Assembly: GCA_001661245.1 (NCBI GenBank)
Contig: KV454018.1
Coordinates: forward strand, 1 to 64,000
Length of the DNA stretch: 64,000 nucleotides
DNA from: Pachysolen tannophilus NRRL Y-2460
Taxonomy: Eukaryota
Reading direction: 5' to 3'
This document shows, in pieces, positions 1 to 17,708 of this stretch. The translations under genes were made by a program, and so were the position numbers. Numbering within the stretch: position 1 is the stretch's first letter; every line of letters begins with the position of its first letter. The notes beneath the pieces were generated by a model. It was not told where the DNA came from. It was given only the letters and a program-made list of their open reading frames with translations, and made no database searches.

Positions 1-368
1 CACTCACACCACTCACACCACTCACACCACTCACACCACTCACACCACTCACACCACTCACACCACTCACACCACTCACACCACTCACACCACTCACACC
101 ACTCACACCACTCACACCACTCACACCACTCACACCACTCACACCACTCACACCACTCACACCACTCACACCACTCACACCACTCACACCACTCACACCA
201 CTCACACCACTCACACCACTCACACCACTCACACCACTCACACCACTCACACCACTCACACCACTCACACCACTCACACCACTCACACCACTCACACCAC
301 TCACACCTCTCACACCACCCACACCTCTCACACCTCTCACACCTCTCACACCTCTCACACCTCTCACA
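1..368 (-). repeat. Telomeric repeat tract, 9-bp unit CACTCACAC (G-rich strand GTGTGAGTG)
   Basis: 34 perfect units at 1-306 at the sequence end, C-rich on the + strand as expected for a left telomere; variant units CTCTCACAC and CACCCACAC at 307-368. Confidence 0.95.
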
Positions 369-2148: not shown

Positions 2149-2879
2149 ATTAACTACAAATATTACTACTGGAAATAAATTTACAAAAAAATTAAACTTA
2201 CTCAAGTATTCACCAGCTATTAGTCCGTAATTTATGTATCCAATAATTCCCTTATTTCCTGCTGATTTGTAAGCGCAATAATATATTACTTATTGTATAC
2301 ACTCCATCCGCATTTAATTTCGTACTCTTCACACTATTTACTTCCTGCTGGTATTTCTGCATCAAATACTTCTTCATTTAGATCAAAGATCAAAATTTAG
2401 ATGACTATATAAATTTTTTGAAAAGAAGTAAGGAGCTAATGTTTTAAGCGAAAATATTTACTGAACTTTAATTTGAATTTTGTAATATACTTTTGATTAT
2501 TTATATACAGAAAATTCAAAATTAATGTACTTTAAAGGTATCCCCGAATTTGTTTGGAAATTTTTCATTTACATTAATTTCTTATTGCTTTGAAAGTAAG
2601 ATGTAGATACTTCCGTATGTCGAAACCTCTAAATCAAATGATTCATAGATCGCATTTTTCAATTTCGAAATGCAAATCAAATGGAAATCTCACATATTCT
2701 GATATTTTTCTATTTAGTTGGTTGTTTCAAAGAATATTTATATTTCGAAGATTTGTAATTTACATTTGACATTATTGTGTCCACTTACTATGGTATACCT
2801 TAAAGCAAACAATTTTTATTTGTAGAAATTAATAGAAAAAAACCAAAAATTAAACAAAAAAAAAGCAATTCAAATTTAC

Positions 2880-4931
2880 TTAGCTATCTCTTTCAGTCTC
2901 TTCTTCTTCCTCATTATCTTCTAGATATGATTTTTTTCCCACCAAGTCTAAAAGCATTCTTGCCAAAGTTTTTCGAGATTCCATTAAAGGCCATATAATG
3001 GTAAAAGTGAATGTCACAAACAACCAAATTATTATGACAGCAACAACAAATGTAAGAAATCCTTTTGAAAACACATATGGAGCTGCTGATAGTGGAACTG
3101 GAATAATAATAGAGATAATTAAAGCTGTTACTGAACTCAAAATAATGTATTTTTTAAACTGCTTCTGTAAATACTGGTGATCAATATGAGAATCATCAAC
3201 AGGTAGATCTGATTCAGATGATTCTTCTGAATCTTTTGCTTGGTATTCAATTTCATTATTTTTTACATTGCCTTCAATCTCCTTACCTGAAGTGATAGGG
3301 GTTGGCTCTGCTTCATTGTAATAAATTTCACTAGCCTCAGCTCCATTAGAATCTGAAAGGATTGTTCTGTTCCGAGTTTTGTTGAAATCAAAATTTGCTG
3401 GTTTTATCAAAGAAATTGTTATTGATAAGACTCCACCCAACACAATAGCACATACATTACCTGTGAAGGAAACCCATTCATCTGATAAATTTGAAAGAGT
3501 TATCGAGCCTAAATATTTATAGCACATCACAAGCCAAGCAACTAAAGCTAAAATCATTCCTAAGATTGATCCTGCGATCGCTCCCGTCTTGTTCAAGTTA
3601 TTCCAAGTAAAAGTCAAAGCTATTGGAAACACCCCGGAGGCCGTTGATACTCCTAAAAAGTTGAATAACCATCCCATAGAAATTCCACCCGCGTGAAATG
3701 CAGAAGCTAAAGCAAAACTGAAAAGAGCCCAAAAAAAGACAAAATATTTGGCTGAGGTAACAACTTCTTCAGGTGAAGCTGATTTTCTAATATATTTCTT
3801 ATAAACATCATAGGATAACAATGTTGATGCAGCAATTAGCTCACCGCTGAAAGATGAAGTCACAGATAAAAATACCATAATAATTATAAGCACAGTACCT
3901 GCTTTTCCTAAAACATAACCAGCAGTAGCAACTGCTGCTAAGCCTGCTGTAACTTCGTCTGATGATAAACTTGGAAAGTCTGAATATACCGAAAGAGCTC
4001 TAGCACCTAATCCCAACGTTGTTCCCATAGCAAAAGGGATCACAAACCAACAAATACATGCCGTGAAATAAGCAGATGATGTTCGCAATGGATTTGATGC
4101 AATTGCTCTGGACCAGTAAGCCTGATCACAATTGACCAATCCAAATCCCGTAATAATTGATTGTATAGAAAATATACCACCTCCACTGGATCTAAAAGTA
4201 AGGTAAGAGCCATGGTAGTTGTTATCAACAGGCTCTAGTTGTGAAAGAAGTTCAACCATTCTGCCTGGTGACCCAATTTTATCATCTATCCCACTAGCAA
4301 AAATTGTGAAAACAAATATAATTAACATAATTAATAGAACAAATGTATGTGTAGCATCAGAAATAAAAGTTGATCTGAGCCCACCGAAATAAACATAAAT
4401 TGCAGTGGATAAAGGAATTAATAACAAAGAAGCATAAACATTCATACCAGTAGCTGCTGAGACAACGGCACTTCCTCCCAATAAAATACAAGAACTAACA
4501 ATTGCATTACAAACTAGTCCACACCAAAGAAATGATAGATGACCAGCGGTTCCAAATCTAAAATATGCCATTTCAGGAAATGTAGTTACCAAGTTGGCAT
4601 TGGATTTTACCTTAGCAGCTATTATACTGAAGACAGAAACTTGAATCAACCCTCCAACTGCATACCACCATCCACCAGAAATTCCTAAATTATAACTTTC
4701 TGTAGCACTTTGTAATAATGTTAAAGACCATGTCCAACTAGAAACAATTGACACTACCATCAAACCAAATGGAATGTTTCTACTAGCTGCAGAAAATTCA
4801 TCTGCTTTATTAGTGTTAAGCTTGGAAAATCTATTTTGAAAAAACGTGAAAATGTTTATCAAGAATGCAAAAAAAGCACCCATCCCAATTATAATGGCAT
4901 ATCCAGCGCCTTGGGGTAAATTTGGTTCCAT
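2880..4931 (-). CDS. DUR3-like sodium:solute symporter (urea/polyamine transporter family)
   Basis: Likely ATG at 4931 (MEPNLPQGAGYAIIIG); motifs VSSWTW, YFGGLRSTFISD, DQAYWSRAIA and SSFSGELIAASTLLSYDVYK; many TM segments. Confidence 0.9.
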   Translation of the reverse strand: MEPNLPQGAGYAIIIGMGAFFAFLINIFTFFQNRFSKLNTNKADEFSAASRNIPFGLMVVSIVSSWTWSLTLLQSATESYNLGISGGWWYAVGGLIQVSVFSIIAAKVKSNANLVTTFPEMAYFRFGTAGHLSFLWCGLVCNAIVSSCILLGGSAVVSAATGMNVYASLLLIPLSTAIYVYFGGLRSTFISDATHTFVLLIMLIIFVFTIFASGIDDKIGSPGRMVELLSQLEPVDNNYHGSYLTFRSSGGGIFSIQSIITGFGLVNCDQAYWSRAIASNPLRTSSAYFTACICWFVIPFAMGTTLGLGARALSVYSDFPSLSSDEVTAGLAAVATAGYVLGKAGTVLIIIMVFLSVTSSFSGELIAASTLLSYDVYKKYIRKSASPEEVVTSAKYFVFFWALFSFALASAFHAGGISMGWLFNFLGVSTASGVFPIALTFTWNNLNKTGAIAGSILGMILALVAWLVMCYKYLGSITLSNLSDEWVSFTGNVCAIVLGGVLSITISLIKPANFDFNKTRNRTILSDSNGAEASEIYYNEAEPTPITSGKEIEGNVKNNEIEYQAKDSEESSESDLPVDDSHIDHQYLQKQFKKYIILSSVTALIISIIIPVPLSAAPYVFSKGFLTFVVAVIIIWLFVTFTFTIIWPLMESRKTLARMLLDLVGKKSYLEDNEEEEETERDS

Positions 4932-5450
4932 TTTTCTTTTCTTTTTATTTTTTTTTCCGTTTTTCAGGTTAGAGAATCTTCCGAAAAATACCTTCATTCA
5001 AGAGAAAGCGACATATTTAAATAATCATGTTAAAGCTGAGTTCGACAAGAAAGTAAATTAAGGCTTCTAAATACTAGTTTCCATGTGACATTCATTATTA
5101 TAGCTTTGACATTCATTTTTTTCTAATCCATAACTAAGATGTAACTGTGTACCTTTTCTCAAGGTCTAGTAATTAAAAAAAAAAGTATGGCTTTTTCAAA
5201 ATATGCATAATTATGCATACGCATGGTGAATAAGAAATTATGGCATCTTCAGTTAATATCAATACTGGATTACGATGAAGTAATAGTTATTTATTTCTGA
5301 AAAAAAAATTTCATTGGAATATAATCGTACTATTTTACAGCTCTCTTACCTTGGCCTAATAATATAGCACAATTGTAATATATAAATGAAACCTTGTACC
5401 TTTTATTGGCAAAAAAAATCTCACGGTAAAAATTGTAAAACTCTGCGATA

Positions 5451-6869
5451 ATGGTTGGTAAGACGACAAATAATTGGGCTTTCATTGAATCTGAAGTGTC
5501 AAGATTGGGATTAATTAAGACACAACCGATTCCAGCTCCTAAAGATCCAAATAGTGAGATTGTGACTTTCAATGGTAGCGATGTTATTGATGAAATCGAA
5601 AACTTCAGAAAAACTTTTATACCAGAACTTGATGTAGATGAAGTTGATAAAAAGTACAATTTAAGAGAATTCAAAGAAGCTGATCCTTCAACATCTAAAA
5701 TTGAACCAATTTCTTTACAAGCAATTGACTTGAGTAAGTACATTGAAGGTGCTGAAGGTTTGCAATCAAGAAAGGATTTAGCAGCTGAACTTGAAAAATC
5801 AATTTCAACTTACGGTTTCTTCAATTTGATCAATATCGGTTACCCTCTAGAGGAATTAAATAAGTTGAGATCTATAGCACAATCGTTGTTAGAGTTGCCA
5901 AATGAAGAAAAGCTCAAATATTTAGCCGGTGCTACAGAGAGAACATTAGAAAATAAGAAAGTCTCGTTAGGTGGAGAAAGAGGACTGGGTTTCAAGCCAA
6001 AAGGTTATTGGACAATGCAAAATAAAGTTCGAGATTCTATAGAACATTACAATTTTCGTGATATGTGTCAGGATAATTATTTCTTTGACAAGAACAGAAA
6101 ATATCCTGAAATAGCAAAGGCTCATCTACCAGAAGTAGCTGCTTATTTTAGATATTTACATTTCAACGTCTTGAGAAAATTGCTCAATCTATGTGATTTG
6201 ATTTTGGAGTTGCCGGAGGGGTATTTATGGGAGAATTATTTCAAGGTTTACAAAGATGACTTGTATAATTCTGGTTCTGGATTTGGTCGTTTTATGCATT
6301 ACCTTGGCATGAGCTCTGAGGAAGAAAAAAAAACTAATAACAATTGGTTAAGAGGGCACTCAGATGGTACTGCCTTCACTTTCATTACATCTCAGCCAAT
6401 ATTGTCGTTGCAAATCAGAGATTATTATACTGGAGAATGGAGATATGTAGGACATAGGAAAAACTCATTGATTGTTAATATTGGTGATTCTATGGAATTC
6501 TTAACGGGAGGTTACTTCAAATCTTCAATTCATAGAGTTGTAGCACCGCCAGAAGATCAAAGAAAATTCAGAAGATTAGTTTTAATTTATTTCTGCAACT
6601 GCGCTCTTTCAACAATAATCGATCCCGAAGAAATAAACTCACCAAAGTTAAATCGTTTAGGTTACAAAAAGCCTGCTTCATGGGAAAAAATTACTTCATC
6701 TAGATGGGATGAAGAAAAAGGAAGACTTTTCGGTGATAAAGATTCTAATGACGTTTCTGGAGATGAGCCTAAAGCAGTTTTATTATTTGGCAGACTACAC
6801 GAGAGATGGCACCAAAATGACAATGGCAAGCCTCCTCACATCATCGAACAAGAAGCAACCAGAGCATGA
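5451..6869 (+). CDS. 2-oxoglutarate/Fe(II)-dependent dioxygenase (DIOX_N plus 2OG-FeII_Oxy, IPNS-like fold)
   Basis: IDLS...YGFFNLIN N-terminal signature; HSD iron ligands (LRGHSDG), LQIR, IVNIGDSMEFLTGG and SSIHRV distal His. Confidence 0.9.
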   Translation: MVGKTTNNWAFIESEVSRLGLIKTQPIPAPKDPNSEIVTFNGSDVIDEIENFRKTFIPELDVDEVDKKYNLREFKEADPSTSKIEPISLQAIDLSKYIEGAEGLQSRKDLAAELEKSISTYGFFNLINIGYPLEELNKLRSIAQSLLELPNEEKLKYLAGATERTLENKKVSLGGERGLGFKPKGYWTMQNKVRDSIEHYNFRDMCQDNYFFDKNRKYPEIAKAHLPEVAAYFRYLHFNVLRKLLNLCDLILELPEGYLWENYFKVYKDDLYNSGSGFGRFMHYLGMSSEEEKKTNNNWLRGHSDGTAFTFITSQPILSLQIRDYYTGEWRYVGHRKNSLIVNIGDSMEFLTGGYFKSSIHRVVAPPEDQRKFRRLVLIYFCNCALSTIIDPEEINSPKLNRLGYKKPASWEKITSSRWDEEKGRLFGDKDSNDVSGDEPKAVLLFGRLHERWHQNDNGKPPHIIEQEATRA

Positions 6870-7135
6870 AATGTTTTATGCTCTTCATTTTAAATCTAAT
6901 GTTCCCTTTTATTTTCTTTCATCGTCAAATTAGTTAAAATAAATATTATGTACCTACGTTTAAGTGAATAAATATATGAAACTATCACCTAATTTTTGTA
7001 TTTCATTTGATCCTAATCTAAAACACATCATATATAGCATACATAAAAAAGTCTTAATCAAAAAAACTTATAAGTTGAAAATAAAAAATGCTAAATGCTA
7101 AATGCTAAATTCATCCAATAATCATCAAATTATAA

Positions 7136-9349
7136 TTATTGAAGAAATTGTTGAATGTCTTCATCATCCAATGCATAATTTCCATCAAAGTTCAATATTC
7201 CGTCCATATTACTAAGGGCAGAAAAAAAATCTTTGTCATATTTCATATCCATTAGAGATGTATTTCTATCTGTATTCATTATATTCAAGCCTCCCATCAA
7301 AAATTTAGTAGGAACTGAATTAACGGTAGAAAAATCTGTAGGATTACAGAAATCCATAGATGGGACACATAAAGCTTCATCCCAGTCAAGAGGATCACCA
7401 TCATCATTATGGAATTTCTTAAATACTTTTGCTGTTTTATGTATGTCAATTTGCTTAAAGCTAATCTCTAAATTGTTTAGTTCATCATAAAAATGCCTTG
7501 CTGATATTGATCCGACAGAACTCAAGTATTTCAATACTTGAATTGATCTGCTAATCCGACTAGTAATCTCCATCTTAGTCCTTTCACTGAATTTTGTAAC
7601 TGTAGCAGACATTAAAATGATTACAGTGGAACTGAAACAATATTGTGCATCAAACCCCCCATATTTAGCAATTTTATCATTGTCATACAATGAGTTGATA
7701 GCAGAGTTTATCGAATAGGCCGATCTGATACAAGCTTCAGATATAGCCAAAGATGTTGGTGAAGGTACAAAATTGACATCAGATATAGCATTAATAAACA
7801 CATAAAGAAACAACGACCTTGTACTCAATATTATTAATTGGTTGTAATGATTATGGAAAGAGTATATATTTCTCAAAATTTTTGAAGTACTTTTATTCTT
7901 GTAATATTGAAGTCGTAAAGTTGGATCTAAATTGTTATAACAATCTCTCAATTCGGTTAACACTTCATGAACATTCTCAACAAACGAAGTATCTCTATTA
8001 TTACTTTGTTCATTGATACTATAAATTTTCTTTAAAATTAAAGAACTGATTTTTGCGATTTGGATTTGACCCAACATATATTTAGATTCTGGAAATTCTT
8101 TGTATTCACTTTCAGTAAAGAATTTTTCTGATGGCAACTCAGTATCTATATCTTCTACGGAAATCCCGTAAGGATGCCCTAACTTTGATGCAATCATTCT
8201 ATCAAATATGAAAACTGTCCACCAAAGCCTTCTCCTTCTTTCCTTTTCCTTTACATCTAAATCTGAGTTATTTGATAAAGATGCTTTACGATGTAAGCCT
8301 AAAAGCATTGAAATTCTTATTGCTAAACTGGCATACATAAATGCAGAATTGACACGGTTTAGAGAATAAGAATAGTATCCGATTTGAGTTAAAGCTTCAA
8401 CATATTCGACGGTCGGCTGTTCAAATTGATCTTGTAATAGGGAAATTGCATATTTGAAATAATCAATACCGGGAGAGCGACCATCAGGCATTATCTCATT
8501 TTTATATAATTCCCCTAAAGCCATCATTGCAAAAAATTGAACCATTTGAATTCTTGAAACTTCATTATTTGGAGTGTACAGTGTTCCGGGTTCATTATTC
8601 TCATATATCTTATCAATAAGTAAATTAAATGAGTCGAACATCACGAAATAATATTCAATTCCAACATAATTTTCAGCAACATAAGCCAACTCTTTTGCAG
8701 TTTTCTTATCTGGTAATATGCAATAGGTATTTATAAATGAATTATTCCAAACCAAGTCTTCATCGTCGTAATGTAAGAACTGATGAAGCTTATTGAAATT
8801 ATATTGATTAAAAGTTTCAGAACCTTTATGAGTAAGAACATATTGTTGTAATTTAATGTTGAATTTTGAACATGCTGAATCACCCATATGAATAAATCGT
8901 GATTTCTGAGTAGTGTAAGGAAGCTTTTGATCAATAACTAAAGGATTACCGTCAGGATCAGTTTTCAAAGGAACAGCATTAATAGCTTCATTTTGCTTTT
9001 TAATTATCCGAGTTCTCAAAGAAGGTGATTCCGCGATATAGTTAACATTCTGGACCAATTTTTCTTCATTCAAAGCTAATTTACTTCTCAAATCTCTTAA
9101 TTCTAATTCCAAATTCTCAACATAATCTTTTTTTATTGTAACATATTTTTCTTTTTTAACAACCGAATAAAAACATTCATAAGCTAGGTTTGAATTTTTA
9201 CACTTATCACATGGATGTTGAAAATTGCATTTGATTTTTTTCTTGTGACAACGTTCACAAGCTTTTCTTGACCTAACCCTACGGTTTCTATTCAAACCGT
9301 TATTGTATTTTAAAGCGTCGGCTTTAATAAGTCCTTCCTCCTTATTCAT
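7136..9349 (-). CDS. Zn(II)2Cys6 fungal transcription factor with Fungal_trans domain
   Basis: ACERCHKKKIKC...PCDKC...C binuclear cluster; LGLHR...ERRRRLWWTVFIFDR middle homology region. Confidence 0.95.
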   Translation of the reverse strand: MNKEEGLIKADALKYNNGLNRNRRVRSRKACERCHKKKIKCNFQHPCDKCKNSNLAYECFYSVVKKEKYVTIKKDYVENLELELRDLRSKLALNEEKLVQNVNYIAESPSLRTRIIKKQNEAINAVPLKTDPDGNPLVIDQKLPYTTQKSRFIHMGDSACSKFNIKLQQYVLTHKGSETFNQYNFNKLHQFLHYDDEDLVWNNSFINTYCILPDKKTAKELAYVAENYVGIEYYFVMFDSFNLLIDKIYENNEPGTLYTPNNEVSRIQMVQFFAMMALGELYKNEIMPDGRSPGIDYFKYAISLLQDQFEQPTVEYVEALTQIGYYSYSLNRVNSAFMYASLAIRISMLLGLHRKASLSNNSDLDVKEKERRRRLWWTVFIFDRMIASKLGHPYGISVEDIDTELPSEKFFTESEYKEFPESKYMLGQIQIAKISSLILKKIYSINEQSNNRDTSFVENVHEVLTELRDCYNNLDPTLRLQYYKNKSTSKILRNIYSFHNHYNQLIILSTRSLFLYVFINAISDVNFVPSPTSLAISEACIRSAYSINSAINSLYDNDKIAKYGGFDAQYCFSSTVIILMSATVTKFSERTKMEITSRISRSIQVLKYLSSVGSISARHFYDELNNLEISFKQIDIHKTAKVFKKFHNDDGDPLDWDEALCVPSMDFCNPTDFSTVNSVPTKFLMGGLNIMNTDRNTSLMDMKYDKDFFSALSNMDGILNFDGNYALDDEDIQQFLQ

Positions 9350-9874
9350 CTATCTGTTGATTTATCTTTTAATCTTGTCTCTCTTAACTATATTGCAGTC
9401 TTTTTTTCTTTTCGTATTTTTGGCAGTTTTCAATTATAAATTATATTATTGATAGATAGCATCGATACATATCTAAAAAGAATTTACGATAATAAAAACA
9501 AAAGGTAGTGGAGAATCAGTCCACTTAGATAAAGAAACTGCGTTAAGATAAAGAATTAAAAGACATAAATAATTCTTGGTGATATTTTTGCATTGTTGGC
9601 GATAAAGATTTCTTACCGCCGACTGGTTGTTATTCAATTTTTGAAAAACTTTCGCTAATTGGAGTCGCAATTGAATTTCCGGCGATAATATGTACCAATC
9701 ACCGATCTTCTCATGTCGAAGACTATCAATCCTGATATGAAAGATTTAGGTGCATAGGATAGCTTATCTAAAATCTGTAATGCATTGTACTTTTATATAA
9801 ATACCCATCCGATGAAGATGTGTAAAATGGTTTCAAGAGAGAACAACGAGACAAGTAAATCGTTAAAGATTAAA

Positions 9875-11386
9875 ATGAGTTTAAAAGAAGAACACCAAGT
9901 TCAAGAAATAGGAGAAGCAAAGGGGGATCCAACAGTACAAGTGGATTCATTCCCTGATGAATCGAGTTTAGATGGAATCAAGTTAGAAAATATGAGTCCT
10001 GAGGACTTGAAAAATTTTCAAATTGATCCTGAAGAAGAAGCTAAACTTACAAGAAAGTTGGATCGTTATTTGATTCCAATGTTTGCTGTTATGTATTTTC
10101 TTTCATCACTTGATAGATCAAATATTGGTAATGCTTATACTTCTGGTATGAAAGAAGATTTGGCATTAACTGCTACTCAATATTCAACTGCAGTTTCAGT
10201 ATTCTACTCTACTTATTTAGTTTCTGAACTACCTGCAACTTTATTTATGAAAAAATTAAAACCACATTATTACTTAAGTTTCTTAGTTTTCTCTTGGTCA
10301 ATGGTTTGTTTATTTAGTGGATTTGTTAAAAGTTATGGAAGCTTAATAGCAACTAGAGTTTTGTTAGGAACTTTTGAAGGTGGATTTTTTCCAGCTATAG
10401 TCACATATACAACAATGACTTGGAAATCAGAAGAACAAGCAAAAAGAATTTCATATTTTTTCGGTTCAGCCTCATTGTCTGGAGCATTTGGAGGTTTAAT
10501 TGCAACTGGATTAACAAAAGTTACTAGTTCTACTTTTGAAGGCTGGCGTTGGTTATACGTTATTGAAGGAATCATCTCTGTATTTGCTTCTCTTTGGTTA
10601 TTTTTTGGTTTACCTGATTCACCAGCAGATTTAAAATTTTTATCACCAAGAGAGAAAATGTTAATGAAAGTAAGAGCAAAGCAACGTGAACTTTATCTTG
10701 GTGATTTGGACCATATTAACTGGCAGGAAGTTAAATCAGCTGTTTTCGATATCAGAACTCACATCAGTTACTGTATTCAATTTTGTCAAGATACAATCTT
10801 ATATGGTTTCAGTACATTTTTACCATCCATTTTAAAATCTGGTTTAGGTTATGATAGTATGCAAGCTCAATATCTTTCAGTTCCAGTTTATTTACTAGCA
10901 GGATTAGTATTTTTAATATCAGCATGGATCAGTGATAGATATAAGGTTAGAGGTATTGTTTTCTTTTGTTACAACTTTGTTGGAGTTGCAGGTTTTATCA
11001 TCTTATTAGCTTGTGACAATGATGCTGTCAAATATTTCGCTTGTTATTTGATTACATTTTCATTATATACAGGTACTGGTTTGAACATTGCTTGGACTAC
11101 AAACAACTTTTCAGGCTTCCGTCGTAATACTCTGATTGGTTTAAATCAAACTTTTGGAAATCTTTCAGGTGCAATTGTTGGTCAGGTTTATAGGTCTTCA
11201 CCATACGTTTTAGGTAATTCTTTCTCATTAGGATGTATTTGCGTTTCAATGATTTTAACTGTTTCTCAACTTTTTTATTTGAGACATTTAAATCGTGAAA
11301 AAGAAGCTATCTTAAGAGGTGAAAAAGTCGATACCAAGAAAGACAGATTGGGTGACAGAGCCTTAGAATTTAAATACTGTTATTAA
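9875..11386 (+). CDS. MFS transporter, anion:cation symporter (Dal5/Tna1-like) family
   Basis: Likely ATG at 9875; KLDRYLIP, LDRSNIGNA, RVLLGTFEGGFFP, GWRWLYVIEG and C-terminal F.Y.Y motifs. Confidence 0.93.
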   Translation: MSLKEEHQVQEIGEAKGDPTVQVDSFPDESSLDGIKLENMSPEDLKNFQIDPEEEAKLTRKLDRYLIPMFAVMYFLSSLDRSNIGNAYTSGMKEDLALTATQYSTAVSVFYSTYLVSELPATLFMKKLKPHYYLSFLVFSWSMVCLFSGFVKSYGSLIATRVLLGTFEGGFFPAIVTYTTMTWKSEEQAKRISYFFGSASLSGAFGGLIATGLTKVTSSTFEGWRWLYVIEGIISVFASLWLFFGLPDSPADLKFLSPREKMLMKVRAKQRELYLGDLDHINWQEVKSAVFDIRTHISYCIQFCQDTILYGFSTFLPSILKSGLGYDSMQAQYLSVPVYLLAGLVFLISAWISDRYKVRGIVFFCYNFVGVAGFIILLACDNDAVKYFACYLITFSLYTGTGLNIAWTTNNFSGFRRNTLIGLNQTFGNLSGAIVGQVYRSSPYVLGNSFSLGCICVSMILTVSQLFYLRHLNREKEAILRGEKVDTKKDRLGDRALEFKYCY

Positions 11387-11771
11387 TTTTGTTTTATTAT
11401 CTTATACTTTTTGAAAAAAAAATTATTGTTATCAAAAAAAAAACTTCGTAGTAGAAACTTTGAACATCTGCATAGTACATGAGAATTAAAGCCGTAATTG
11501 TTTTCCTGGTATTAAAGGTTTGATTATGTACTAATTTTGAATTATGCATGCAAGTGTATTCTCATCAGTCATATTCTTTTATCTAACGAAAAACGATATA
11601 AACGATAACATTAATTTCGTATTTATATATACTCTATTATCTATAAATCTGTATATAATATTTATTGTATGTGACTATTGCATTTATGGTGGGTTAATGG
11701 GTAATTTATAATTCAAGTTACAATTATTACGTTAAAAGTATTATTAAATTAATAGATAATTTTTTTTACTA

Positions 11772-12596
11772 ATGAAAATAGATACTGTTGCTAAGCAATT
11801 TCGTTTGAGTTGCCGTTCTGAAGTTCATAATACACAAACTGCTGGACAAGCAGCTGGGTATGCTCAAGCAAATTTGGTTATCTTACCTACTGAAGTAGTA
11901 AATGATTTCAAAGATTTTTGTTTTAGAAACCCTGTTCCTTGTCCATTATTGGCTTATACCGAAGGTAATCCTAATAAAGTTAATAACATTAAAGTGATCG
12001 ATGATGATTATGGTAATTTTGACATAAGAACAGATTTACCAAAATATAATATCTATGAAAATGGAAAACTTATTAAGACTAAATCGAACATCTTGGAGGA
12101 ATGGGATTCTGATCGATATGTTGGATTTCTCATAGGTTGTTCATTTTCATTTGAGTATGAACTAGCTAAAAATGGTTTAACCCCGAAACATATTTTATTA
12201 AACACAAATGTATCCATTTATAAGACCACACTTCTGTTAAACCCAGCAGGAGTATTTGTTAATTGTAAATATGTTGTAAGCATGAGACCTTATAAAGAAA
12301 AAGATTTAGATAAAGTGAGAGAGATAACAAGACTGTTTAAAGTAACTCATGGGGAACCAATAGACTGGGGGTTTGATGCTGTCAAAAGATTAGGTATTAA
12401 TGATTTAAACTCTCCCGATTATGGAAGTTTTGTAGAAATGGAACCTGATGAAATACCTGTGTTTTGGGCGTGTGGTGTTACACCTCAATTAGCAATAGAA
12501 ACTGTAGGCGAAAAAATTGATGGAATAGTTATGACTCATACTCCAGGACATATGTTGATCTTGGATATAACAGATGAAGAAGTTGTTAATTTATAG
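11772..12596 (+). CDS. DUF1445 / D-glutamate cyclase-like putative hydro-lyase
   Basis: QANLVILP, RNPVPCPLL, DIRTDLPKY, FLIGCSFSFE, VVSMRP, HGEPI, PVFWACGVTPQ and THTPGHML family motifs. Confidence 0.9.
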   Translation: MKIDTVAKQFRLSCRSEVHNTQTAGQAAGYAQANLVILPTEVVNDFKDFCFRNPVPCPLLAYTEGNPNKVNNIKVIDDDYGNFDIRTDLPKYNIYENGKLIKTKSNILEEWDSDRYVGFLIGCSFSFEYELAKNGLTPKHILLNTNVSIYKTTLLLNPAGVFVNCKYVVSMRPYKEKDLDKVREITRLFKVTHGEPIDWGFDAVKRLGINDLNSPDYGSFVEMEPDEIPVFWACGVTPQLAIETVGEKIDGIVMTHTPGHMLILDITDEEVVNL

Positions 12597-12628
12597 AAAA
12601 GAAAAAAATAATTTTTTTTTTTTTTTTT

Positions 12629-12968
12629 NNNNNNNNNNNNNNNNNNNNNNNNNNNNNNNNNNNNNNNNNNNNNNNNNNNNNNNNNNNNNNNNNNNNNNNN
12701 NNNNNNNNNNNNNNNNNNNNNNNNNNNNNNNNNNNNNNNNNNNNNNNNNNNNNNNNNNNNNNNNNNNNNNNNNNNNNNNNNNNNNNNNNNNNNNNNNNNN
12801 NNNNNNNNNNNNNNNNNNNNNNNNNNNNNNNNNNNNNNNNNNNNNNNNNNNNNNNNNNNNNNNNNNNNNNNNNNNNNNNNNNNNNNNNNNNNNNNNNNNN
12901 NNNNNNNNNNNNNNNNNNNNNNNNNNNNNNNNNNNNNNNNNNNNNNNNNNNNNNNNNNNNNNNNNNNN
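12629..12968. other. Assembly gap (N run)
   Basis: Ns; the right flank 12969-~13050 repeats the 3' end of the DUF1445 gene with small indels. Confidence 0.99.
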
Positions 12969-13661
12969 CCAGGACATATGTTGTATCTTGGATATAACAG
13001 ATGAAGAAGTTGTTAATTTATTAGAAAGAAAAAATAAATTTTTTTNTTTTTTTTTTTTCCATTTTTCAATTTTTCTTCTTTTAGGGCAATAGTAGTTTCA
13101 TAATCTTATTGTACAGTTCTTATCTATTAAGATTTTCGAATTAGAGGTTTAGATTGGTTGATTTAATTATTTCCCCTTTTGTATTTTTGATATATACACA
13201 CGACCAAGTTGTTGATGTATATTTATACACCGACGTATATATACACTGATAAGAGTTAAATTGAATTTTTTTTCTTTTTAAGAGTTTTTCATCTTCAGCG
13301 AGGAAGTTCCTAAAGCTAATTAAAAAATCAAATTTTTTTTTAATAATAAATTTAATCAATGGGCTAGATGCTGTTTTATCCATCAATAGCCAAAATAAAC
13401 CAAAACTATTTTAGGTTGTCTATGCGGGATGTTTGCATAACTATATTTACCTGAGCATTCCAAAATTTACTATTGGCGCTGCTATCTGTTTATCTGAATT
13501 TCTTTTCCTAATTAGGAATCTCCATCATTAGTACCCATATCAGTATAATAAATCAAAAATGATATATAAACGAGAATGTTCAGTAGTTCATTCATTGATT
13601 TTATCTCAATCATTAGTCTTCCTTTAGATCGCTTATTGCTGATATTATTTTTTTCAAGACA

Positions 13662-15764
13662 ATGGAACGTTTACAACAAATTGCTTCTCAAGCCACAGGT
13701 TCTTTGAGTCCACCTCCAAGACCTGATCATCCTTTGGATCCATTATCTTCTGCTGAAATAAAAGCTGCAACTGATGTTATTAAAAACAAATATGCTGGTC
13801 ATAAAATTAACTTCAATACGGTAACTTTAAGAGAACCAACAAAGAAGGCTTTCTTGGAGTGGAAAGATAAGAATGGACCACTTCCTCCACGTTTAGCATA
13901 TTTTGTCATATTAGAAGACGGTGTTAGTGGTGTTCAAGAAGGTGTTATTGATTTAGGTTCATTGGCTATCACTAGCTTGAAAAACATTGTTGGTGTTCAG
14001 CCTATCTTAACCGTAGAGGACTTATGTTCTACTGAATCGGTTATCAGAAATGATCCTAAAGTCATTGAGCAATGTGTTCTTTCTGGTGTTCCAGCTAATG
14101 AAATGCACAACATTTATTGTGATCCATGGACTATTGGTTACGATGAACGTTGGGGTTCTTCAAAGAGATTACAACAGGCTTTGATGTATTATAGATCAAA
14201 CGAAGATGACTCTCAATATTCCCATCCTTTGGATTTCTGTCCAATTGTCGATATGGAGAAGCAAGAAGTCATCTATATTGATATTCCTAATCGTCGTCGT
14301 AAAGTTAGCAAACATAAACATGCCAATTTCTACCCAAAGGACGTTAAGGAAAAATATGGTAAGATGAGAGATGATGCAAAACCAATTAACATCACTCAAC
14401 CAGAAGGCGTCTCTTTTAAAATGGATGGCAATGTCATGAACTGGTCAAACTTTAAGTTCCACATTGGTTTCAATTATAGAGAAGGTATTGTCTTATCTGA
14501 TATTTCATACAATGATCATGGTAAAGAGAGACCAATTTTCCATAGAATCTCTTTGTCAGAAATGATTGTTCCATATGGCTCACCAGATTTCCCTCATCAA
14601 AGAAAACATGCCTTAGATATTGGTGAATATGGTGCAGGTTACATGACTAATCCGTTATCTTTAGGATGTGATTGTAAAGGTGTTATTCACTACTTAAATG
14701 CATGCTTTAGTGATAGGAGCGGTGACCCAATAACTATTAAGAATGCAGTTTGTATTCATGAAGAGGATGACGGATTATTATACAAACATTCAGATTTCAG
14801 AGATTCTTTTTCTACTTCCATTGTAACTAGATCTACAAAGTTGGTAATTTCTCAAGTTTTCACTGCAGCTAATTATGAATACTGTATCTATTGGAATTTT
14901 ATTCAAGATGGTACTATTAAATTAGATATTAGGTTAACGGGTATCTTAAACACTTATGTTTTAGGTGATGATGAAGATGCTGGTCCATGGGGAACTCAAG
15001 TTTACCCTAATGTTAATGCTCATAATCACCAACATATGTTTTCATTACGTATACATCCAAGATTAGATGGTGATCAAGGTAATTCAGCGGCTATGGTAGA
15101 TGCTCAACCTTCACCATTCCCATTGGGATCACCTGAAAATATGTATGGTAATGGATTTTACGCAAAGAAAACTACATTCAAGACTGTCAGTGATTCTTTA
15201 ACTAACTATGAATCATCTACTGGAAGATCATGGGATATTTTCAATCCTAATGTTATTCACCCATACTCTGGAAAACCTTCATCTTATAAATTGGTTTCTA
15301 CCATGTGTCCACCACTCTTAGCTAAACCAGGTTCTTTAGTTTACAAAAGAGCACCTTGGGCCAGCAAAACTATTCAAGTTATTCCATATCAAGAAGATAG
15401 ACTTTATCCTTCTGGGGTACATGTACCACAGTGGTCTGGTGATGGTATCAGAGGTATGAGAGAATGGATTGGAGATGGATCTGAAAAAATTGAAAATACT
15501 GATATTTTGATGTTTCATACATTCGGAATCACACATTTCCCAGCTCCAGAAGATTTCCCTGTTATGCCTGTAGAACCAATGTCATTATTGTTGAGACCAA
15601 GAAACTTTTTCCTAGAGAATCCTACATTAGATATTGTTCCATCTCATGCAACGACAACTAGTGAGGCAGTAAAAGCTGGTAATGCTCAACATAAAGCATC
15701 AGGAGATGGTGTTTCAAGATTGGCCTTTGAGAGTAGTCCAAGCTCATGTTGTAGCAGAAAATAA
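13662..15764 (+). CDS. AMO1: Peroxisomal copper amine oxidase (TPQ-dependent)
   Basis: HPLDPL N-terminal motif; TAANYEY TPQ consensus; HNHQH and THFP copper ligands; PTS2-like RLQQIASQA resembling the Ogataea amine oxidase N-terminus. Confidence 0.95.
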   Translation: MERLQQIASQATGSLSPPPRPDHPLDPLSSAEIKAATDVIKNKYAGHKINFNTVTLREPTKKAFLEWKDKNGPLPPRLAYFVILEDGVSGVQEGVIDLGSLAITSLKNIVGVQPILTVEDLCSTESVIRNDPKVIEQCVLSGVPANEMHNIYCDPWTIGYDERWGSSKRLQQALMYYRSNEDDSQYSHPLDFCPIVDMEKQEVIYIDIPNRRRKVSKHKHANFYPKDVKEKYGKMRDDAKPINITQPEGVSFKMDGNVMNWSNFKFHIGFNYREGIVLSDISYNDHGKERPIFHRISLSEMIVPYGSPDFPHQRKHALDIGEYGAGYMTNPLSLGCDCKGVIHYLNACFSDRSGDPITIKNAVCIHEEDDGLLYKHSDFRDSFSTSIVTRSTKLVISQVFTAANYEYCIYWNFIQDGTIKLDIRLTGILNTYVLGDDEDAGPWGTQVYPNVNAHNHQHMFSLRIHPRLDGDQGNSAAMVDAQPSPFPLGSPENMYGNGFYAKKTTFKTVSDSLTNYESSTGRSWDIFNPNVIHPYSGKPSSYKLVSTMCPPLLAKPGSLVYKRAPWASKTIQVIPYQEDRLYPSGVHVPQWSGDGIRGMREWIGDGSEKIENTDILMFHTFGITHFPAPEDFPVMPVEPMSLLLRPRNFFLENPTLDIVPSHATTTSEAVKAGNAQHKASGDGVSRLAFESSPSSCCSRK

Positions 15765-16027
15765 ATAGATTAAATACGTTTGATTTGTGATTAGCTTAAT
15801 TTTAATTCTTATTTTTATTTTTTATTTTTTTTTTTTTTGTGATATAAAATCTCTTGAATGAGTAATGTTTATTTGTTTATTTTCCTTCCTTCTAGTTTTA
15901 TATATATTTTTTTTTATCTTTTTTTTTCAACCATTCTATAGCTTTGGAATAAAATCATAATATTCGTTTTAAAAAAAAGGACAAAAAGGAAATAGTTTAA
16001 TAAAAAAAAAAATAAAAGAAGGTTTAT

Positions 16028-16945: not shown

Positions 16946-17228
16946 AATCTTAATACCCTATCAAATTATTCAATAAATTGTTTAAAATTAATATTTATCG
17001 AACTTTGTATTTTTAAAGGGGAATTTTTCTTTTTTTATTAAAAGAATACACAAAATGCAAGTCAAAAAAGTATTTAATAGAAAACATTACTACACGACGT
17101 ATCACATTCATTTATAATTTAATTCATTAATAATAATAATATATATATACATAAAAGATATACCTATTAAGGTTCACCGGGAGGTTTCTATTGATGCTGG
17201 TTTCTATCTTAAGATACTAATTTTAAAC

Positions 17229-17708
17229 CTAGTACCAAGTTTTTTGCTCTTTTTCTTTTCTTTCTAATCTTCTCTTATATTTATTACCTCTAGCTTCAAT
17301 AATAATTTCATCAGCTCTTGCCACAGCTTCAGCAATTTTCTGTTTACGAGATTCATAAGTTCTTTCCCATTTATGTCCCTTAGGGTTAACTGCACCTTTC
17401 AAAGGTTTCAGATTATTATATCTTTCTTCATAAAAAACTTTTCCATTATTTAATTTAGGTAACAAATCTGCAACCCCAAATTTGTACGCCAACTTAAAGA
17501 GATCAGATTGCCTTCTCATAGAATATATCGGATCATGAATAGCATTTGTAACAGGGTGCTTATTTGGTAAAAATGGATTTGCATCATCTGCCGTCGTTAG
17601 TGTAGTTTCTGTAGCATATTGTTTAAAAGGTATAGGTGGGTATTGCGTGAAAAAATCAACTAATTTCTTAGGCAATTTCTTGAATGCCTGTTGTGCACTA
17701 AGTGACAT
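17229..17708 (-). CDS. MRPL25: Mitochondrial ribosomal protein mL59
   Basis: LP.KL..FF..YPP, NPFLPNKHP, YSMRRQSDL.K.A and PKGHKWE motifs. Confidence 0.85.
   Translation of the reverse strand: MSLSAQQAFKKLPKKLVDFFTQYPPIPFKQYATETTLTTADDANPFLPNKHPVTNAIHDPIYSMRRQSDLFKLAYKFGVADLLPKLNNGKVFYEERYNNLKPLKGAVNPKGHKWERTYESRKQKIAEAVARADEIIIEARGNKYKRRLERKEKEQKTWY

What the first reader, a model, noticed from the sequence alone, without database searches (positions are those of the whole stretch)
2880..15764. Candidate subtelomeric nitrogen-scavenging cluster: two transporters, a Zn2Cys6 regulator and three catabolic enzymes
Seen: six contiguous accessory genes between the telomere and the core genome. They are a DUR3-like symporter divergent from a 2OG/Fe dioxygenase, a Zn2Cys6 TF divergent from a Dal5/Tna1-type MFS, a DUF1445 protein and a copper amine oxidase, with an SDR distal to them. 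Known: DUR3 proteins import urea/polyamines, ACS-family permeases import allantoate/peptides/anionic N-compounds, copper amine oxidases release NH3 from primary amines, and the mammalian DUF1445 enzyme converts D-Glu to 5-oxo-D-proline. Inference: this is a co-regulated pathway, or two adjacent mini-clusters, for using unusual nitrogen sources. I know of no characterized yeast cluster with this composition.
Basis: partly seen in the sequence, partly recalled or inferred. Interest (0 to 1): 0.8.

Follow-up and report, generated by a model that had tools for sequence, protein, structure and literature searches.

The report
Yeast chromosome-end nitrogen genes, one conserved pair
The six genes at this yeast chromosome end are real, but only the transporter and the DUF1445 enzyme are shown to travel together in other fungi, which points to a small undescribed module for importing and converting a pyroglutamate-like or D-glutamate-like compound.

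Summary
Observation confirmed. Behind a telomere array (1-368) lie an SDR, a DUR3-family symporter divergent from a 2OG/Fe oxygenase, a Zn2Cys6 factor divergent from a Dal5/Tna1-type MFS, a DUF1445 protein and a copper amine oxidase. Core genes follow (mL59, acetylornithine aminotransferase, HIS4).

The reading as one co-regulated six-gene pathway is not supported.
- **Conserved linkage** was found for only one pair, MFS-DUF1445. The two sit two gene slots apart in 4 Lachancea species. They share contigs in 8 unnamed assemblies, against about 0.18 expected by chance, spread over four clades of the DUF1445 tree.
- **GATAA sites** are densest in the window in the promoters of this pair. The symporter/oxygenase and SDR promoters have none.
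- **The MFS** is 60% identical to ORF B26 of wine-yeast Region B, which sits beside a 5-oxoprolinase.
- **Bacterial DUF1445 genes** neighbour 5-oxoprolinase genes in 11 of 38 loci.
- **The amine oxidase** is a close relative of the solved Ogataea peroxisomal enzyme.
- **The SDR** lies in a repeated end element.
- **The transcription factor** has no budding-yeast relative among the 20 best hits looked up.

Best reading: an ordinary subtelomeric collection holding one undescribed transporter-enzyme module. Expression could not be tested.

The parts
1..368 (.). Telomere-like array, 40.9 copies of the 9-base unit CACTCACAC, at the contig end
1288..2148 (-). Short-chain dehydrogenase/reductase. It lies in the distal stretch that has diverged copies elsewhere in the genome, and I do not count it as part of a pathway.
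   Evidence: Pfam adh_short 7.5e-45. Only generic SDR hits among solved structures. Diverged contigs and joints are confined to about 371-2407.
2880..4997 (-). DUR3-family solute symporter (urea/polyamine type). Substrate unknown. Divergent from the oxygenase.
   Evidence: Pfam SSF 1.3e-24. 370 bits, E 2e-109, to solved 'Urea-proton symporter DUR3' chains.
4998..5450 (.). Shared divergent promoter of the symporter and the oxygenase. It holds no GATAA and a single CGG.
5451..6869 (+). 2-oxoglutarate/Fe(II) oxygenase (DIOX_N + 2OG-FeII_Oxy), 472 aa. Substrate unknown.
   Evidence: Pfam. Only weak hits to plant DOXC enzymes, TropC and thymine dioxygenase. Atlas clusters are Ascomycota Fe2OG dioxygenases.
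7136..9349 (-). Zn2Cys6 transcription factor, divergent from the MFS. Presumed local regulator, inferred from position only.
   Evidence: Pfam Zn_clus + Fungal_trans. Best relatives are 30-37% identical; all 18 named of the 20 looked up are Pezizomycotina proteins.
9350..9811 (.). Shared divergent promoter of the factor and the MFS. It holds 7 GATAA sites and 5 CCG triplets.
9812..11386 (+). Dal5/Tna1-type (anion:cation symporter) MFS permease. The database model starts at residue 61 (base 9992). Proposed importer of the substrate of DUF1445.
   Evidence: Pfam MFS_1 7e-44. Orthologues are 63-67% identical in Lachancea, and it is 60% identical to the Z. bailii / S. cerevisiae Region B permease cluster.
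11387..11771 (.). DUF1445 promoter, with 6 GATAA sites in 385 bases
11772..12596 (+). DUF1445 / UPF0317 / YcsI-type 'putative hydro-lyase' (Pfam D-Glu_cyclase), 274 aa, single domain
   Evidence: Pfam 1.8e-55. Solved UPF0317 proteins 2pif and 3db9 at 2e-50. 61 invariant columns shared with 12 fungal relatives.
13662..15764 (+). Copper amine oxidase, a close relative of the Ogataea (Hansenula) polymorpha peroxisomal primary-amine oxidase
   Evidence: Pfam. 1325 bits over residues 1-698 to chain 3sx1_A. The N-terminal RLxQIASQA and the NYEY and HNHQH motifs are kept.

Best explanation
This is an ordinary chromosome-end collection of accessory nitrogen-related genes, in a yeast that reads CUG as alanine. 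It contains one real, conserved functional module rather than a six-gene pathway.

**The module.** It is the Dal5/Tna1-type MFS permease plus the DUF1445 hydro-lyase. In this lineage a Zn2Cys6 factor sits divergently beside the permease.

**Proposed mechanism (inferred).**
- The permease imports an acidic, cyclic or D-configured glutamate derivative, most likely 5-oxoproline (pyroglutamate, D- or L-) or D-glutamate.
- DUF1445 interconverts the open and lactam forms (D-Glu and 5-oxo-D-proline, or a close analogue), so that the nitrogen can enter glutamate metabolism.
- The pair is switched on under poor nitrogen supply through GATA-factor sites. The neighbouring factor possibly adds substrate-specific induction.

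**The other genes act on their own.**
- The copper amine oxidase is the peroxisomal primary-amine (methylamine) oxidase.
- The DUR3-family symporter and the 2OG oxygenase share a promoter, but their relation is untested.
- The SDR belongs to a repeated subtelomeric element.

**Shown:** gene identities, conserved MFS-DUF1445 linkage, GATAA enrichment, and the association of both families with 5-oxoprolinase genes elsewhere.

**Inferred:** substrate, direction of the reaction, regulation by the factor.
For: **1. Linkage in named species.**
- The DUF1445 orthologues LAME_0C00386g, LALA0_S01e00276g, LAMI_0D00210g and LADA_0B11562g each lie exactly 44 tag units from the best MFS orthologues LAME_0C00430g, LALA0_S01e00320g, LAMI_0D00254g and LADA_0B11518g, which are 63-67% identical to the window's MFS.
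- Every Lachancea tag in both outputs is congruent to 12 mod 22. So 44 units means two slots, with one feature between.

**2. Linkage on shared contigs.**
- 13 of 120 'longest contig' lengths in the DUF1445 hit list recur exactly in the 120-row MFS list.
- They comprise the window's own contig, the 4 Lachancea chromosomes and 8 unnamed contigs of 4,529 to 128,093 bases.
- About 0.18 such matches are expected by chance.

**3. Breadth.** On a FastTree of 119 DUF1445 proteins the linked cases fall in four clades: the window's own, a Saccharomycetaceae clade, a Pichia-like clade, and one case in the clade holding Aspergillus, Penicillium and Knufia.

**4. Promoters.**
- The factor|MFS promoter has 7 GATAA in 462 bases (shuffle mean 2.44; 13 of 1000 shuffles reach 7).
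- The DUF1445 promoter has 6 in 385 bases (mean 1.70; 6 of 1000).
- At 15.2 and 15.6 per kb these are the densest of the 29 upstream regions in the window; the others are at most 8.6 per kb.

**5. Association with 5-oxoprolinase.**
- The MFS is 60% identical to the 90% cluster holding Z. bailii ZYBA0S13-00518g and the S. cerevisiae copies.
- This cluster corresponds to Region B ORF B26. B26 is listed next to B25, a 5-oxoprolinase, and B24, a transcription factor (passages of PMC13447093 and PMC7212421).
- In 38 bacterial DUF1445 loci, chosen by me from 80, the two nearest ORFs on each side include PxpA/B/C-type 5-oxoprolinase subunits in 9, hydantoinase/oxoprolinase in 2, the DUF4392 domain in 7 and TRAP carboxylate transporters in 8.

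**6. S. pombe.**
- SPAC5H10.01 (DUF1445), the Tna1-like SPAC11D3.18c and the 5-oxoprolinase SPAC11D3.15 are named together among 9 genes specifically down-regulated by high copper (PMC1929147; enzyme name from PMC5983419).
- The first two also fall together in a klf1 deletion (PMC3805531).
- Both Tna1-like permeases rise under nitrogen limitation (PMC4614384).

**7. Open question.** A 2026 paper states that the yeast 5-oxoproline transporter is not known (PMC13398684 passage).

**8. The amine oxidase** matches solved O. polymorpha amine oxidase at 1325 bits end to end.
Against: - No 5-oxoprolinase lies in the window. The only two ORFs over 1000 aa are a Na/Ca exchanger and an oxysterol-binding protein.
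- MFS and DUF1445 are unlinked in Z. rouxii (ZYRO0G00352g against ZYRO0C00308p).
- In L. nothofagi only a 56% paralogue, on another chromosome, was listed.
- The feature between the two genes in Lachancea is unknown.
- The best S. pombe match of the window's MFS is SPBC1683.12, not SPAC11D3.18c. That SPAC11D3.18c and SPAC5H10.01 are physical neighbours is my recollection only.
- DUF1445 on its own has no demonstrated activity. The mammalian cyclase carries a second domain, which the window's protein lacks.
- The bacterial neighbourhoods are mixed. 3 of 38 hold amidases, and in at least 9 of 38 none of the listed partner families was among the four nearest ORFs.
- No motif beyond GATAA ties the factor to the DUF1445 promoter. 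One shared 9-mer is within the number of such matches seen among the five promoters.
- Same-contig evidence rests on equal contig lengths, not on the DNA itself.
- Both gene families are subtelomeric in many yeasts (low tag numbers). That alone raises the chance of co-location within a species.
Confidence: 0.55

Rival explanations
1. One reading: all six genes (symporter, oxygenase, factor, MFS, DUF1445, amine oxidase) form one co-regulated pathway for an unusual nitrogen source, controlled by the Zn2Cys6 factor.
For: - The genes are contiguous, with two divergent promoter pairs.
- All have plausible roles in nitrogen scavenging.
- The amine oxidase promoter also holds 5 GATAA, including 2 GATAAG.
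Against: - No CGG-pair or other motif is shared by the five promoters.
- The symporter/oxygenase promoter has 0 GATAA, against 13 in the two promoters of the MFS-DUF1445 module.
- The amine oxidase enrichment is not significant: 205 of 1000 shuffles reach its count.
- The amine oxidase is a close relative of an enzyme that works alone.
- The factor has no relative in the yeasts that keep the MFS-DUF1445 pair.
- No known chemistry joins these six activities; this last point is my own judgement.
Confidence: 0.07
2. There are two or three true mini-clusters. The symporter and oxygenase are a functional pair: import of a urea-, polyamine- or guanidino-type compound followed by its oxidative breakdown. 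Factor, MFS and DUF1445 form a second unit, with the amine oxidase as a third or as part of the second.
For: - The symporter and oxygenase share a 453-base divergent promoter, a layout typical of yeast catabolic pairs (the review PMC2784038 says so for MAL, GAL and DIT clusters).
- The oxygenase is intact: Pfam matches both of its domains.
- S. pombe induces a 2OG-Fe(II) oxygenase, isp7, under nitrogen limitation (PMC4614384 table).
Against: - No linkage data for this pair could be obtained.
- The known partner of DUR3 in yeasts is DUR1,2 (PMC2784038), which is absent here.
- The oxygenase has only weak, uninformative relatives among solved structures.
- No GATAA lies in their promoter.
Confidence: 0.22
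3. There is no functional coupling at all. Every gene here, including MFS and DUF1445, is an independent accessory gene. The repeated co-location reflects inheritance or transfer of a subtelomeric block.
For: - Both families sit within the first 6 to 18 features of chromosomes in several yeasts (tags).
- They are unlinked in Z. rouxii.
- Region B shows that such blocks move between species (PMC7212421).
Against: - Linkage recurs in four separate clades of the DUF1445 tree, including one among Pezizomycotina-type sequences.
- It occurs on contigs as short as 4,529 and 4,998 bases.
- The pair keeps its relation although the flanking genes differ.
- Its two promoters share the strongest GATAA enrichment in the window.
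- S. pombe co-regulates members of the two families.
Confidence: 0.12

Closest known systems
Region B of wine and other S. cerevisiae strains, acquired from Zygosaccharomyces bailii (ORFs B24 factor, B25 5-oxoprolinase, B26 TNA1-like MFS, B27 flocculin, B28 factor)
   Same: The window's MFS is 60% identical to the protein cluster holding the Z. bailii and S. cerevisiae copies of this permease. In both places the permease sits beside a fungal zinc-cluster factor and an enzyme tied to 5-oxoproline chemistry.
   Different: Region B carries an ATP-dependent 5-oxoprolinase and no DUF1445. The window carries DUF1445 and no 5-oxoprolinase. Whether the factors are related was not tested. In the passages I read, B26 is annotated as a nicotinic acid or sugar-phosphate permease, not as a 5-oxoproline carrier.
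Bacterial ycsF-ycsG-ycsI-kipI-kipA type operons (PxpABC 5-oxoprolinase with YcsI = DUF1445). The operon name is recalled.
   Same: The same enzyme family, 40-46% identical, sits next to a transporter and to 5-oxoproline-opening enzymes. The loci with LamB_YcsF, Nramp, CT_C_D or CT_A_B neighbours are L008, L028, L031, L032, L035, L039, L057, L062 and L069, 9 of 38.
   Different: The bacterial transporter is of the Nramp or TRAP type, not an MFS of the Dal5 family. The genes form an operon rather than separate promoters. PxpABC is absent from the window.
Mammalian D-glutamate cyclase (DGLUCY, 9030617O03Rik)
   Same: It shares the PF07286 (DUF1445) domain. The enzyme converts D-Glu to 5-oxo-D-proline (PMC5339696, abstract and passages).
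   Different: The mammalian enzyme also carries DUF4392 (PF14336) and a coiled coil, and it is mitochondrial. The passages I read do not say which domain is catalytic. The window's protein has PF07286 only. In 7 of 38 bacterial loci PF14336 is a separate neighbouring gene; none is seen next to the window's gene.
Ogataea (Hansenula) polymorpha peroxisomal primary-amine (methylamine) oxidase, solved as 3sx1, 2oov, 1a2v
   Same: End-to-end match of 1325 bits over 698 residues, with the same three domains. The N-terminal RLxQIASQA is kept; I recall this as the PTS2 import signal. The NYEY site of the topaquinone tyrosine and the HNHQH copper histidines are also kept.
   Different: Nothing of note. 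It is an ordinary member. Its place at a chromosome end beside DUF1445 is not known to matter.
DUR3-DUR1,2 urea cluster of budding yeasts
   Same: A DUR3-family symporter sits next to a catabolic enzyme gene (PMC2784038 passages).
   Different: Here the partner is a 2OG/Fe oxygenase, not urea amidolyase. The orientation is divergent rather than the tandem one listed for P. stipitis.
S. pombe left end of chromosome I: SPAC11D3.14c and .15 (5-oxoprolinases), .17 (C2H2 factor), .18c (Tna1-like MFS), SPAC5H10.01 (DUF1445)
   Same: The same three families appear, with co-regulation reported in two studies. The permeases respond to nitrogen limitation.
   Different: The window's MFS matches SPBC1683.12 best. 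Physical adjacency of .18c and SPAC5H10.01 is recalled, not checked. The nearby factor is C2H2, not Zn2Cys6.

Membership tests
DUR3-type sodium:solute symporter family | SSF fold and close similarity to characterised DUR3 urea-proton symporters | tested here: met
   Pfam SSF 1.3e-24 over profile positions 4-406 of 406. 370 bits, E 2e-109, over residues 27-547 to solved DUR3 chains.
DUR3-type sodium:solute symporter family | Transport of urea or polyamines | not testable with these tools
   Needs uptake assays. Which DUR3 paralogue group it belongs to was not resolved.
Copper amine oxidase (peroxisomal AMO/HPAO type) | N2, N3 and catalytic domains, the NYEY topaquinone precursor and the copper histidines | tested here: met
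   All three Pfam domains are present. 'AANYEYC', 'HNHQH' and 'HTFGITH' are in the translation and aligned to chain 3sx1_A. The role of these motifs is recalled.
Copper amine oxidase (peroxisomal AMO/HPAO type) | N-terminal PTS2-like signal | tested here: met
   RLQQIASQA in the window aligns to RLRQIASQA in the solved enzyme. The consensus R-L-x5-Q/H-A/L is recalled. Import itself was not tested.
Zn2Cys6 fungal transcription factor | Six-cysteine binuclear cluster plus the fungal-specific middle homology region | tested here: met
   Zn_clus 8.5e-08 and Fungal_trans 8e-33. The CX2CX6CX5CX2CX8C pattern is visible.
Dal5/Tna1 (anion:cation symporter) subfamily of MFS | MFS fold with closest named relatives in the allantoate/nicotinate permease group | tested here: met
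   MFS_1 7e-44. Named hits are 'allantoate permease family MFS transporter' and 'high-affinity nicotinic acid transporter'. These names are annotations, not assays.
D-glutamate cyclase (mammalian DGLUCY type) | PF07286 (DUF1445) domain | tested here: met
   1.8e-55, profile positions 1-143 of 143
D-glutamate cyclase (mammalian DGLUCY type) | Second domain PF14336 (DUF4392), in the same protein or in a neighbouring gene | tested here: not met
   The 274-aa protein has one Pfam family only, and none of the 30 window ORFs scanned carries PF14336. It is therefore filed as a YcsI/UPF0317-type single-domain protein, not as a DGLUCY-type enzyme.
D-glutamate cyclase (mammalian DGLUCY type) | Conversion of D-Glu to 5-oxo-D-proline | not testable with these tools
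   Needs an enzyme assay.
Fungal catabolic gene cluster (factor + transporter + enzymes, co-regulated and conserved) | Linkage conserved across species | tested here: inconclusive
   Met for MFS-DUF1445: 4 Lachancea species and 8 unnamed contigs. Broken in Z. rouxii. Not tested for the symporter, oxygenase or amine oxidase. No orthologue of the factor was found in the linked species.
Fungal catabolic gene cluster (factor + transporter + enzymes, co-regulated and conserved) | Co-expression or a shared regulatory motif | tested here: inconclusive
   GATAA is enriched only in the factor|MFS and DUF1445 promoters. No motif is common to all promoters. No expression data were available.
Region B-type 5-oxoprolinase module | An OXP1-type 5-oxoprolinase (Hydantoinase_A/B) next to the permease | tested here: not met
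   No Hydantoinase domain occurs among the 30 ORFs scanned. The only ORFs over 1000 aa are a Na/Ca exchanger and an oxysterol-binding protein.

The most novel reading that the evidence does not exclude
The Dal5/Tna1-type permease subfamily found here, in Region B of wine yeasts and in many other fungi is the fungal importer of 5-oxoproline (pyroglutamate) or D-glutamate. A 2026 paper says this transporter is still unknown in yeast. [quoted passage not shown] Together they would form an ancient, undescribed, nitrogen-regulated two-gene module across Ascomycota for salvaging D-glutamate-derived or pyroglutamate nitrogen, for example from bacterial cell walls and decaying protein. The module would be interchangeable with, or complementary to, ATP-dependent 5-oxoprolinase.
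Probability: 0.3. Interest if true: 0.6.

Novelty: new member of a known kind. Interest (0 to 1): 0.42.

Why it matters
As a six-gene "nitrogen cluster" the finding is ordinary. Yeast chromosome ends commonly collect permeases, zinc-cluster factors and catabolic enzymes.

What is worth keeping is the permease-DUF1445 pair. It recurs in distant fungi, and I found no account of it in the searchable literature. A full-text search for DUF1445 returned 5 papers. I read passages of one of these (PMC3805531), and by title and abstract start none of the five concerns a fungal gene pair.

The pair gives a concrete candidate for the yeast 5-oxoproline transporter, which a 2026 paper calls unknown.

It also offers a first physiological handle on a domain family that is widespread in bacteria and fungi. 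Its only assayed representative is a two-domain mammalian enzyme.

Finally, it suggests re-reading ORF B26 of the horizontally acquired Region B of wine yeasts. B26 is currently discussed as a nicotinic acid transporter.

Tried and rejected
- **Whole genome:** none is held for this window, so paralogues and a 5-oxoprolinase elsewhere could not be sought.
- **Earlier notes of this scan:** nothing by place, sequence or words.
- **Expression:** no RNA holder listed. All runs laid were contigs. Expression was therefore not assessed.
- **Runs X6 and X7,** from other organisms of the same study, gave only pieces of 18 to 38 bases at 80% likeness. They carry no information.
- **Metagenome scan with DUF1445:** one partial locus at 37% identity at a contig end, not followed.
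- **Word-indexed homologue search with the factor:** only 6 hits, swamped by the candidate limit. It was replaced by the exhaustive representative search and two name look-ups.
- **Motifs:** CGG/CCG pair scan and shared k-mers among five promoters gave nothing common to all. The 9-mer shared by the factor|MFS and DUF1445 promoters occurs only at these two places in the window. However, 9 such two-region 9-mers were found among the five promoters, and the flanks do not align. I treat it as chance.
- **My recollection** that S. cerevisiae Dal5 carries 5-oxoproline found no support in the passages read and was dropped.
- **My recollection** that the window's MFS would match SPAC11D3.18c best was wrong. 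The best S. pombe hit is SPBC1683.12.
- **Class-III aminotransferase at 18528-19658:** considered as a GABA or putrescine link to the amine oxidase and rejected. It matches acetylornithine aminotransferases best.
- **Nicotinate and pyrimidine catabolic clusters:** considered from memory as models, then dropped for lack of the defining enzymes in the window.
- **tRNA scan of 1-20000:** none found.
- **One literature search** failed on term syntax and was not repeated.
- **Supplementary tables** of the S. pombe papers were not opened. They may hold coordinates and fold changes that bear on the co-regulation claim.

Full report
**What is there**

The window begins with 40.9 copies of a 9-base unit, CACTCACAC, at 1-368. 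This fits a chromosome end.

The database copies of three window proteins differ from a standard translation only by Leu to Ala at CTG. So the organism was annotated with CUG read as alanine, and I used table 26 afterwards. Pfam results do not depend on this choice.

- SDR, 1288-2148 (-).
- SSF symporter, 2880-4997 (-).
- DIOX_N + 2OG-FeII_Oxy oxygenase, 5451-6869 (+).
- Zn_clus + Fungal_trans factor, 7136-9349 (-).
- MFS_1 permease, 9812-11386 (+).
- PF07286 (DUF1445) protein, 11772-12596 (+).
- Three-domain copper amine oxidase, 13662-15764 (+).

An alpha/beta hydrolase comes next, then core genes. These are mL59, an aminotransferase that matches acetylornithine aminotransferases best, HIS4, eIF4E, TDH, ADE1 and others.

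A contig of 10,713 bases, assembled from a run of another study, covers 1921-12594 with no other letters and two gaps. The gene order is therefore real.

**Gene by gene**

- **Symporter.** It scores 370 bits against solved DUR3 urea-proton symporters and is a DUR3-family member. Its substrate is unknown.
- **Oxygenase.** It has only weak solved relatives: plant DOXC-class enzymes, TropC and thymine dioxygenase, at E 2e-14 and weaker. Its Atlas neighbours are Ascomycota Fe2OG dioxygenases. Nothing indicates a substrate.
- **Amine oxidase.** It aligns end to end, at 1325 bits over 698 residues, with the Ogataea polymorpha peroxisomal primary-amine oxidase. It keeps the N-terminal RLxQIASQA, the NYEY site and the HNHQH histidines. 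It is a close relative of a well-studied enzyme that needs no partner genes.
- **SDR.** It is generic. It lies in the distal stretch where the laid contigs include diverged copies and joints to other sequence. 28 of the 38 contigs laid from run X1 were under 95% alike. All 40 listed differences, of 129, lie at 553-2133. This stretch is therefore a repeated chromosome-end element.
- **Factor.** The word-indexed search failed, so I used the exhaustive search over representatives. The best relatives are 30-37% identical. I looked up the names of 20 of them; all 18 that carry a name are Pezizomycotina proteins and 2 are unnamed.

**The conserved pair**

The homologue lists for DUF1445 and for the MFS carry locus tags. 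In four Lachancea species the best MFS orthologue, 63-67% identical, and the DUF1445 orthologue lie on the same chromosome, exactly 44 tag units apart:
- L. meyersii: 00386 and 00430.
- L. lanzarotensis: 00276 and 00320.
- L. mirantina: 00210 and 00254.
- L. dasiensis: 11562 and 11518.

All Lachancea tags in both lists are congruent to 12 mod 22. The numbering step is therefore 22, and one feature lies between the two genes.

Beyond named species, the 'longest contig' lengths of the two 120-row lists coincide exactly 13 times. These are the window's own contig, the four Lachancea chromosomes, and eight unnamed contigs of 4,529, 4,998, 8,009, 10,393, 13,934, 18,392, 24,043 and 128,093 bases. 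From the density of near-misses, about 0.18 exact matches are expected by chance.

On a FastTree of 119 of the 120 DUF1445 hits (one of under 230 aa was left out), the linked cases fall in four clades:
- the window's own clade;
- a Saccharomycetaceae clade;
- a clade with Pichia inconspicua;
- one case inside the well-supported clade that holds Aspergillus, Penicillium and Knufia.

Counter-examples exist. In Z. rouxii the two genes are on chromosomes G and C. In L. nothofagi only a 56% paralogue, on another chromosome, was listed.

The same-contig inference rests on equal lengths, not on the DNA, because the tool that returns such contigs is closed.

**Regulation**

No CGG/CCG pair or other word is shared by all five promoters.

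GATAA, the core site of nitrogen-catabolite GATA factors in S. cerevisiae (established knowledge; its use in this yeast is inferred), gives a clear split:

| Promoter | GATAA sites | Length (bases) | Shuffle mean | Shuffles of 1000 reaching the count |
|---|---|---|---|---|
| Factor / MFS | 7 | 462 | 2.44 | 13 |
| DUF1445 | 6 | 385 | 1.70 | 6 |
| Amine oxidase | 5 | 611 | 3.23 | 205 |
| Symporter / oxygenase | 0 | 453 | 1.82 | – |
| SDR | 0 | 731 | 3.26 | – |

The first two are the densest of the 29 upstream regions in the window, at 15.2 and 15.6 per kb. All others are at most 8.6 per kb. The promoters therefore divide the stretch as the linkage data do.

**What the pair may do**

Three lines point to 5-oxoproline or D-glutamate chemistry.

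1. *Region B.* The window's MFS is 60% identical to the 90% cluster that holds Z. bailii ZYBA0S13-00518g and many S. cerevisiae copies. This corresponds to ORF B26 of the horizontally acquired Region B. B26 is listed beside B25, a 5-oxoprolinase, and B24, a transcription factor (passages of PMC13447093 and PMC7212421).

2. *Bacteria.* These hold DUF1445 genes 40-46% identical to the fungal ones. I took 38 of the 80 loci returned, chosen by eye to avoid repeated genera, and scanned the two nearest ORFs on each side (143 ORFs). The neighbours were:
   - PxpA/B/C-type 5-oxoprolinase subunits in 9 loci;
   - hydantoinase/oxoprolinase in 2;
   - the DUF4392 domain in 7;
   - TRAP carboxylate transporters in 8;
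   - amidases in 3;
   - unrelated or unassigned genes in the rest.

3. *S. pombe.*
   - SPAC5H10.01 (DUF1445), the Tna1-like SPAC11D3.18c and SPAC11D3.15 are named together among nine genes specifically down-regulated by high copper (PMC1929147).
   - SPAC11D3.15 and .14c are 5-oxoprolinases (PMC5983419 and PMC12610034 tables).
   - The first two also fall in a klf1 deletion (PMC3805531).
   - Both Tna1-like permeases rise under nitrogen limitation (PMC4614384).

The only assayed relative is the mammalian D-glutamate cyclase, which makes 5-oxo-D-proline from D-glutamate. That enzyme carries DUF1445 and DUF4392, and the passages I read do not assign the activity to either domain (PMC5339696). 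The window's protein has DUF1445 only.

I therefore propose, as inference, that the permease imports 5-oxoproline or D-glutamate and that DUF1445 interconverts the lactam and open forms. I put about 0.3 on that specific chemistry. I put about 0.55 on the wider statement that the stretch is an ordinary subtelomeric collection with this one functional module.

**Comparison and novelty**

The stretch as a whole resembles many yeast chromosome ends and is not a new kind of system.

The pair resembles Region B and the bacterial YcsI/PxpABC operons in its logic: a carrier next to an enzyme of 5-oxoproline chemistry. It differs in its parts, with a Dal5-family MFS, DUF1445 instead of a 5-oxoprolinase, and separate GATA-rich promoters.

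A full-text search for DUF1445 returned 5 papers. I read passages of one of these (PMC3805531), and by title and abstract start none of the five concerns a fungal gene pair. A 2026 paper states that the yeast transporter of 5-oxoproline is not known.

I rate the finding as a new member of a known kind, the small fungal catabolic cluster, with moderate interest.

**What stays open**

- Linkage of the symporter, oxygenase and amine oxidase in other genomes.
- Any expression data.
- The identity of the feature between the two genes in Lachancea.
- Whether the factor regulates the pair.
- The substrate.

Noticed in passing
window 1-368: The telomere-like array has a 9-base unit, CACTCACAC, in 40.9 copies at 98% matches. 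The last copies degenerate to CACCTCTCA-type units before unique sequence starts.
   Followed up: partly
window 7136-12596 (proteins P0001, P0121, P0241): The database copies of three window proteins differ from the standard translation only by Leu to Ala at CTG codons. The genome was therefore annotated with CUG read as alanine (table 26).
   Followed up: partly
window, between 12597 and 13661: A run of N lies between DUF1445 and the amine oxidase. It is followed by a near-duplicate, with small indels, of the last 80 or so bases of the DUF1445 gene and its poly-T tail. This looks like an assembly join with overlapping ends. The ORFs at 12574-13092 (+) and 12591-12977 (-) are artefacts of it. 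I did not try to read the N run.
   Followed up: no
window 371-2407: The distal stretch, including the SDR gene, is matched by several diverged contigs (85-95% alike). There is also a joint that replaces 990 bases by 540 others (1281 to 2272) in runs X1 and X5. From about 2.4 kb inward a single perfect contig covers the rest. The chromosome end proper is a repeated element with SDR paralogues.
   Followed up: partly
window 9812-9991: The database model of the MFS starts at residue 61 of the ORF (464 aa against 524 aa). The first 60 codons, rich in Lys, Glu and Ser, may not be translated.
   Followed up: no
window 7136-9349: The 20 best relatives of the Zn2Cys6 factor that I looked up are at most 37% identical. 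All 18 that carry a name are Pezizomycotina proteins, none from budding yeasts. This could mean fast divergence or foreign origin.
   Followed up: partly
window 13662-15764: The amine oxidase is far more conserved towards Ogataea (1325 bits over 698 residues) than DUF1445 is (54-56% identical to the Ogataea proteins).
   Followed up: no
window 18528-19658: The acetylornithine aminotransferase ORF starts at profile position 21 of 403 and at about residue 23-35 of the solved bacterial enzymes. The true start, a mitochondrial presequence or a small 5' exon, probably lies upstream of the first ATG of this ORF.
   Followed up: no
loci L007, L016, L019, L025, L035, L048, L067 (about 6800-7850 in each, 5030-5968 in L025): In 7 of 38 bacterial loci a separate PF14336 (DUF4392, 'D-glutamate cyclase-like C-terminal') gene lies directly beside the DUF1445 gene. 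The two domains of the mammalian enzyme thus exist as a two-gene pair in bacteria.
   Followed up: partly
loci L010, L014, L018, L037, L054, L070, L078 (about 4900-8600): A recurring bacterial arrangement is a LysR regulator, DUF1445, and TRAP transporter DctP and DctQ genes. (The regulator was not among the nearest ORFs scanned in L054.) This suggests a carboxylate substrate taken up from outside.
   Followed up: no
window 9598-9690: Two of the GATAA sites in the factor|MFS promoter share the longer form GGCGATAA (at about 9598 and 9681). One lies 8 bases upstream of, the other directly beside, a CCG/CGG-rich patch (CCGCCG and TCCGG).
   Followed up: no
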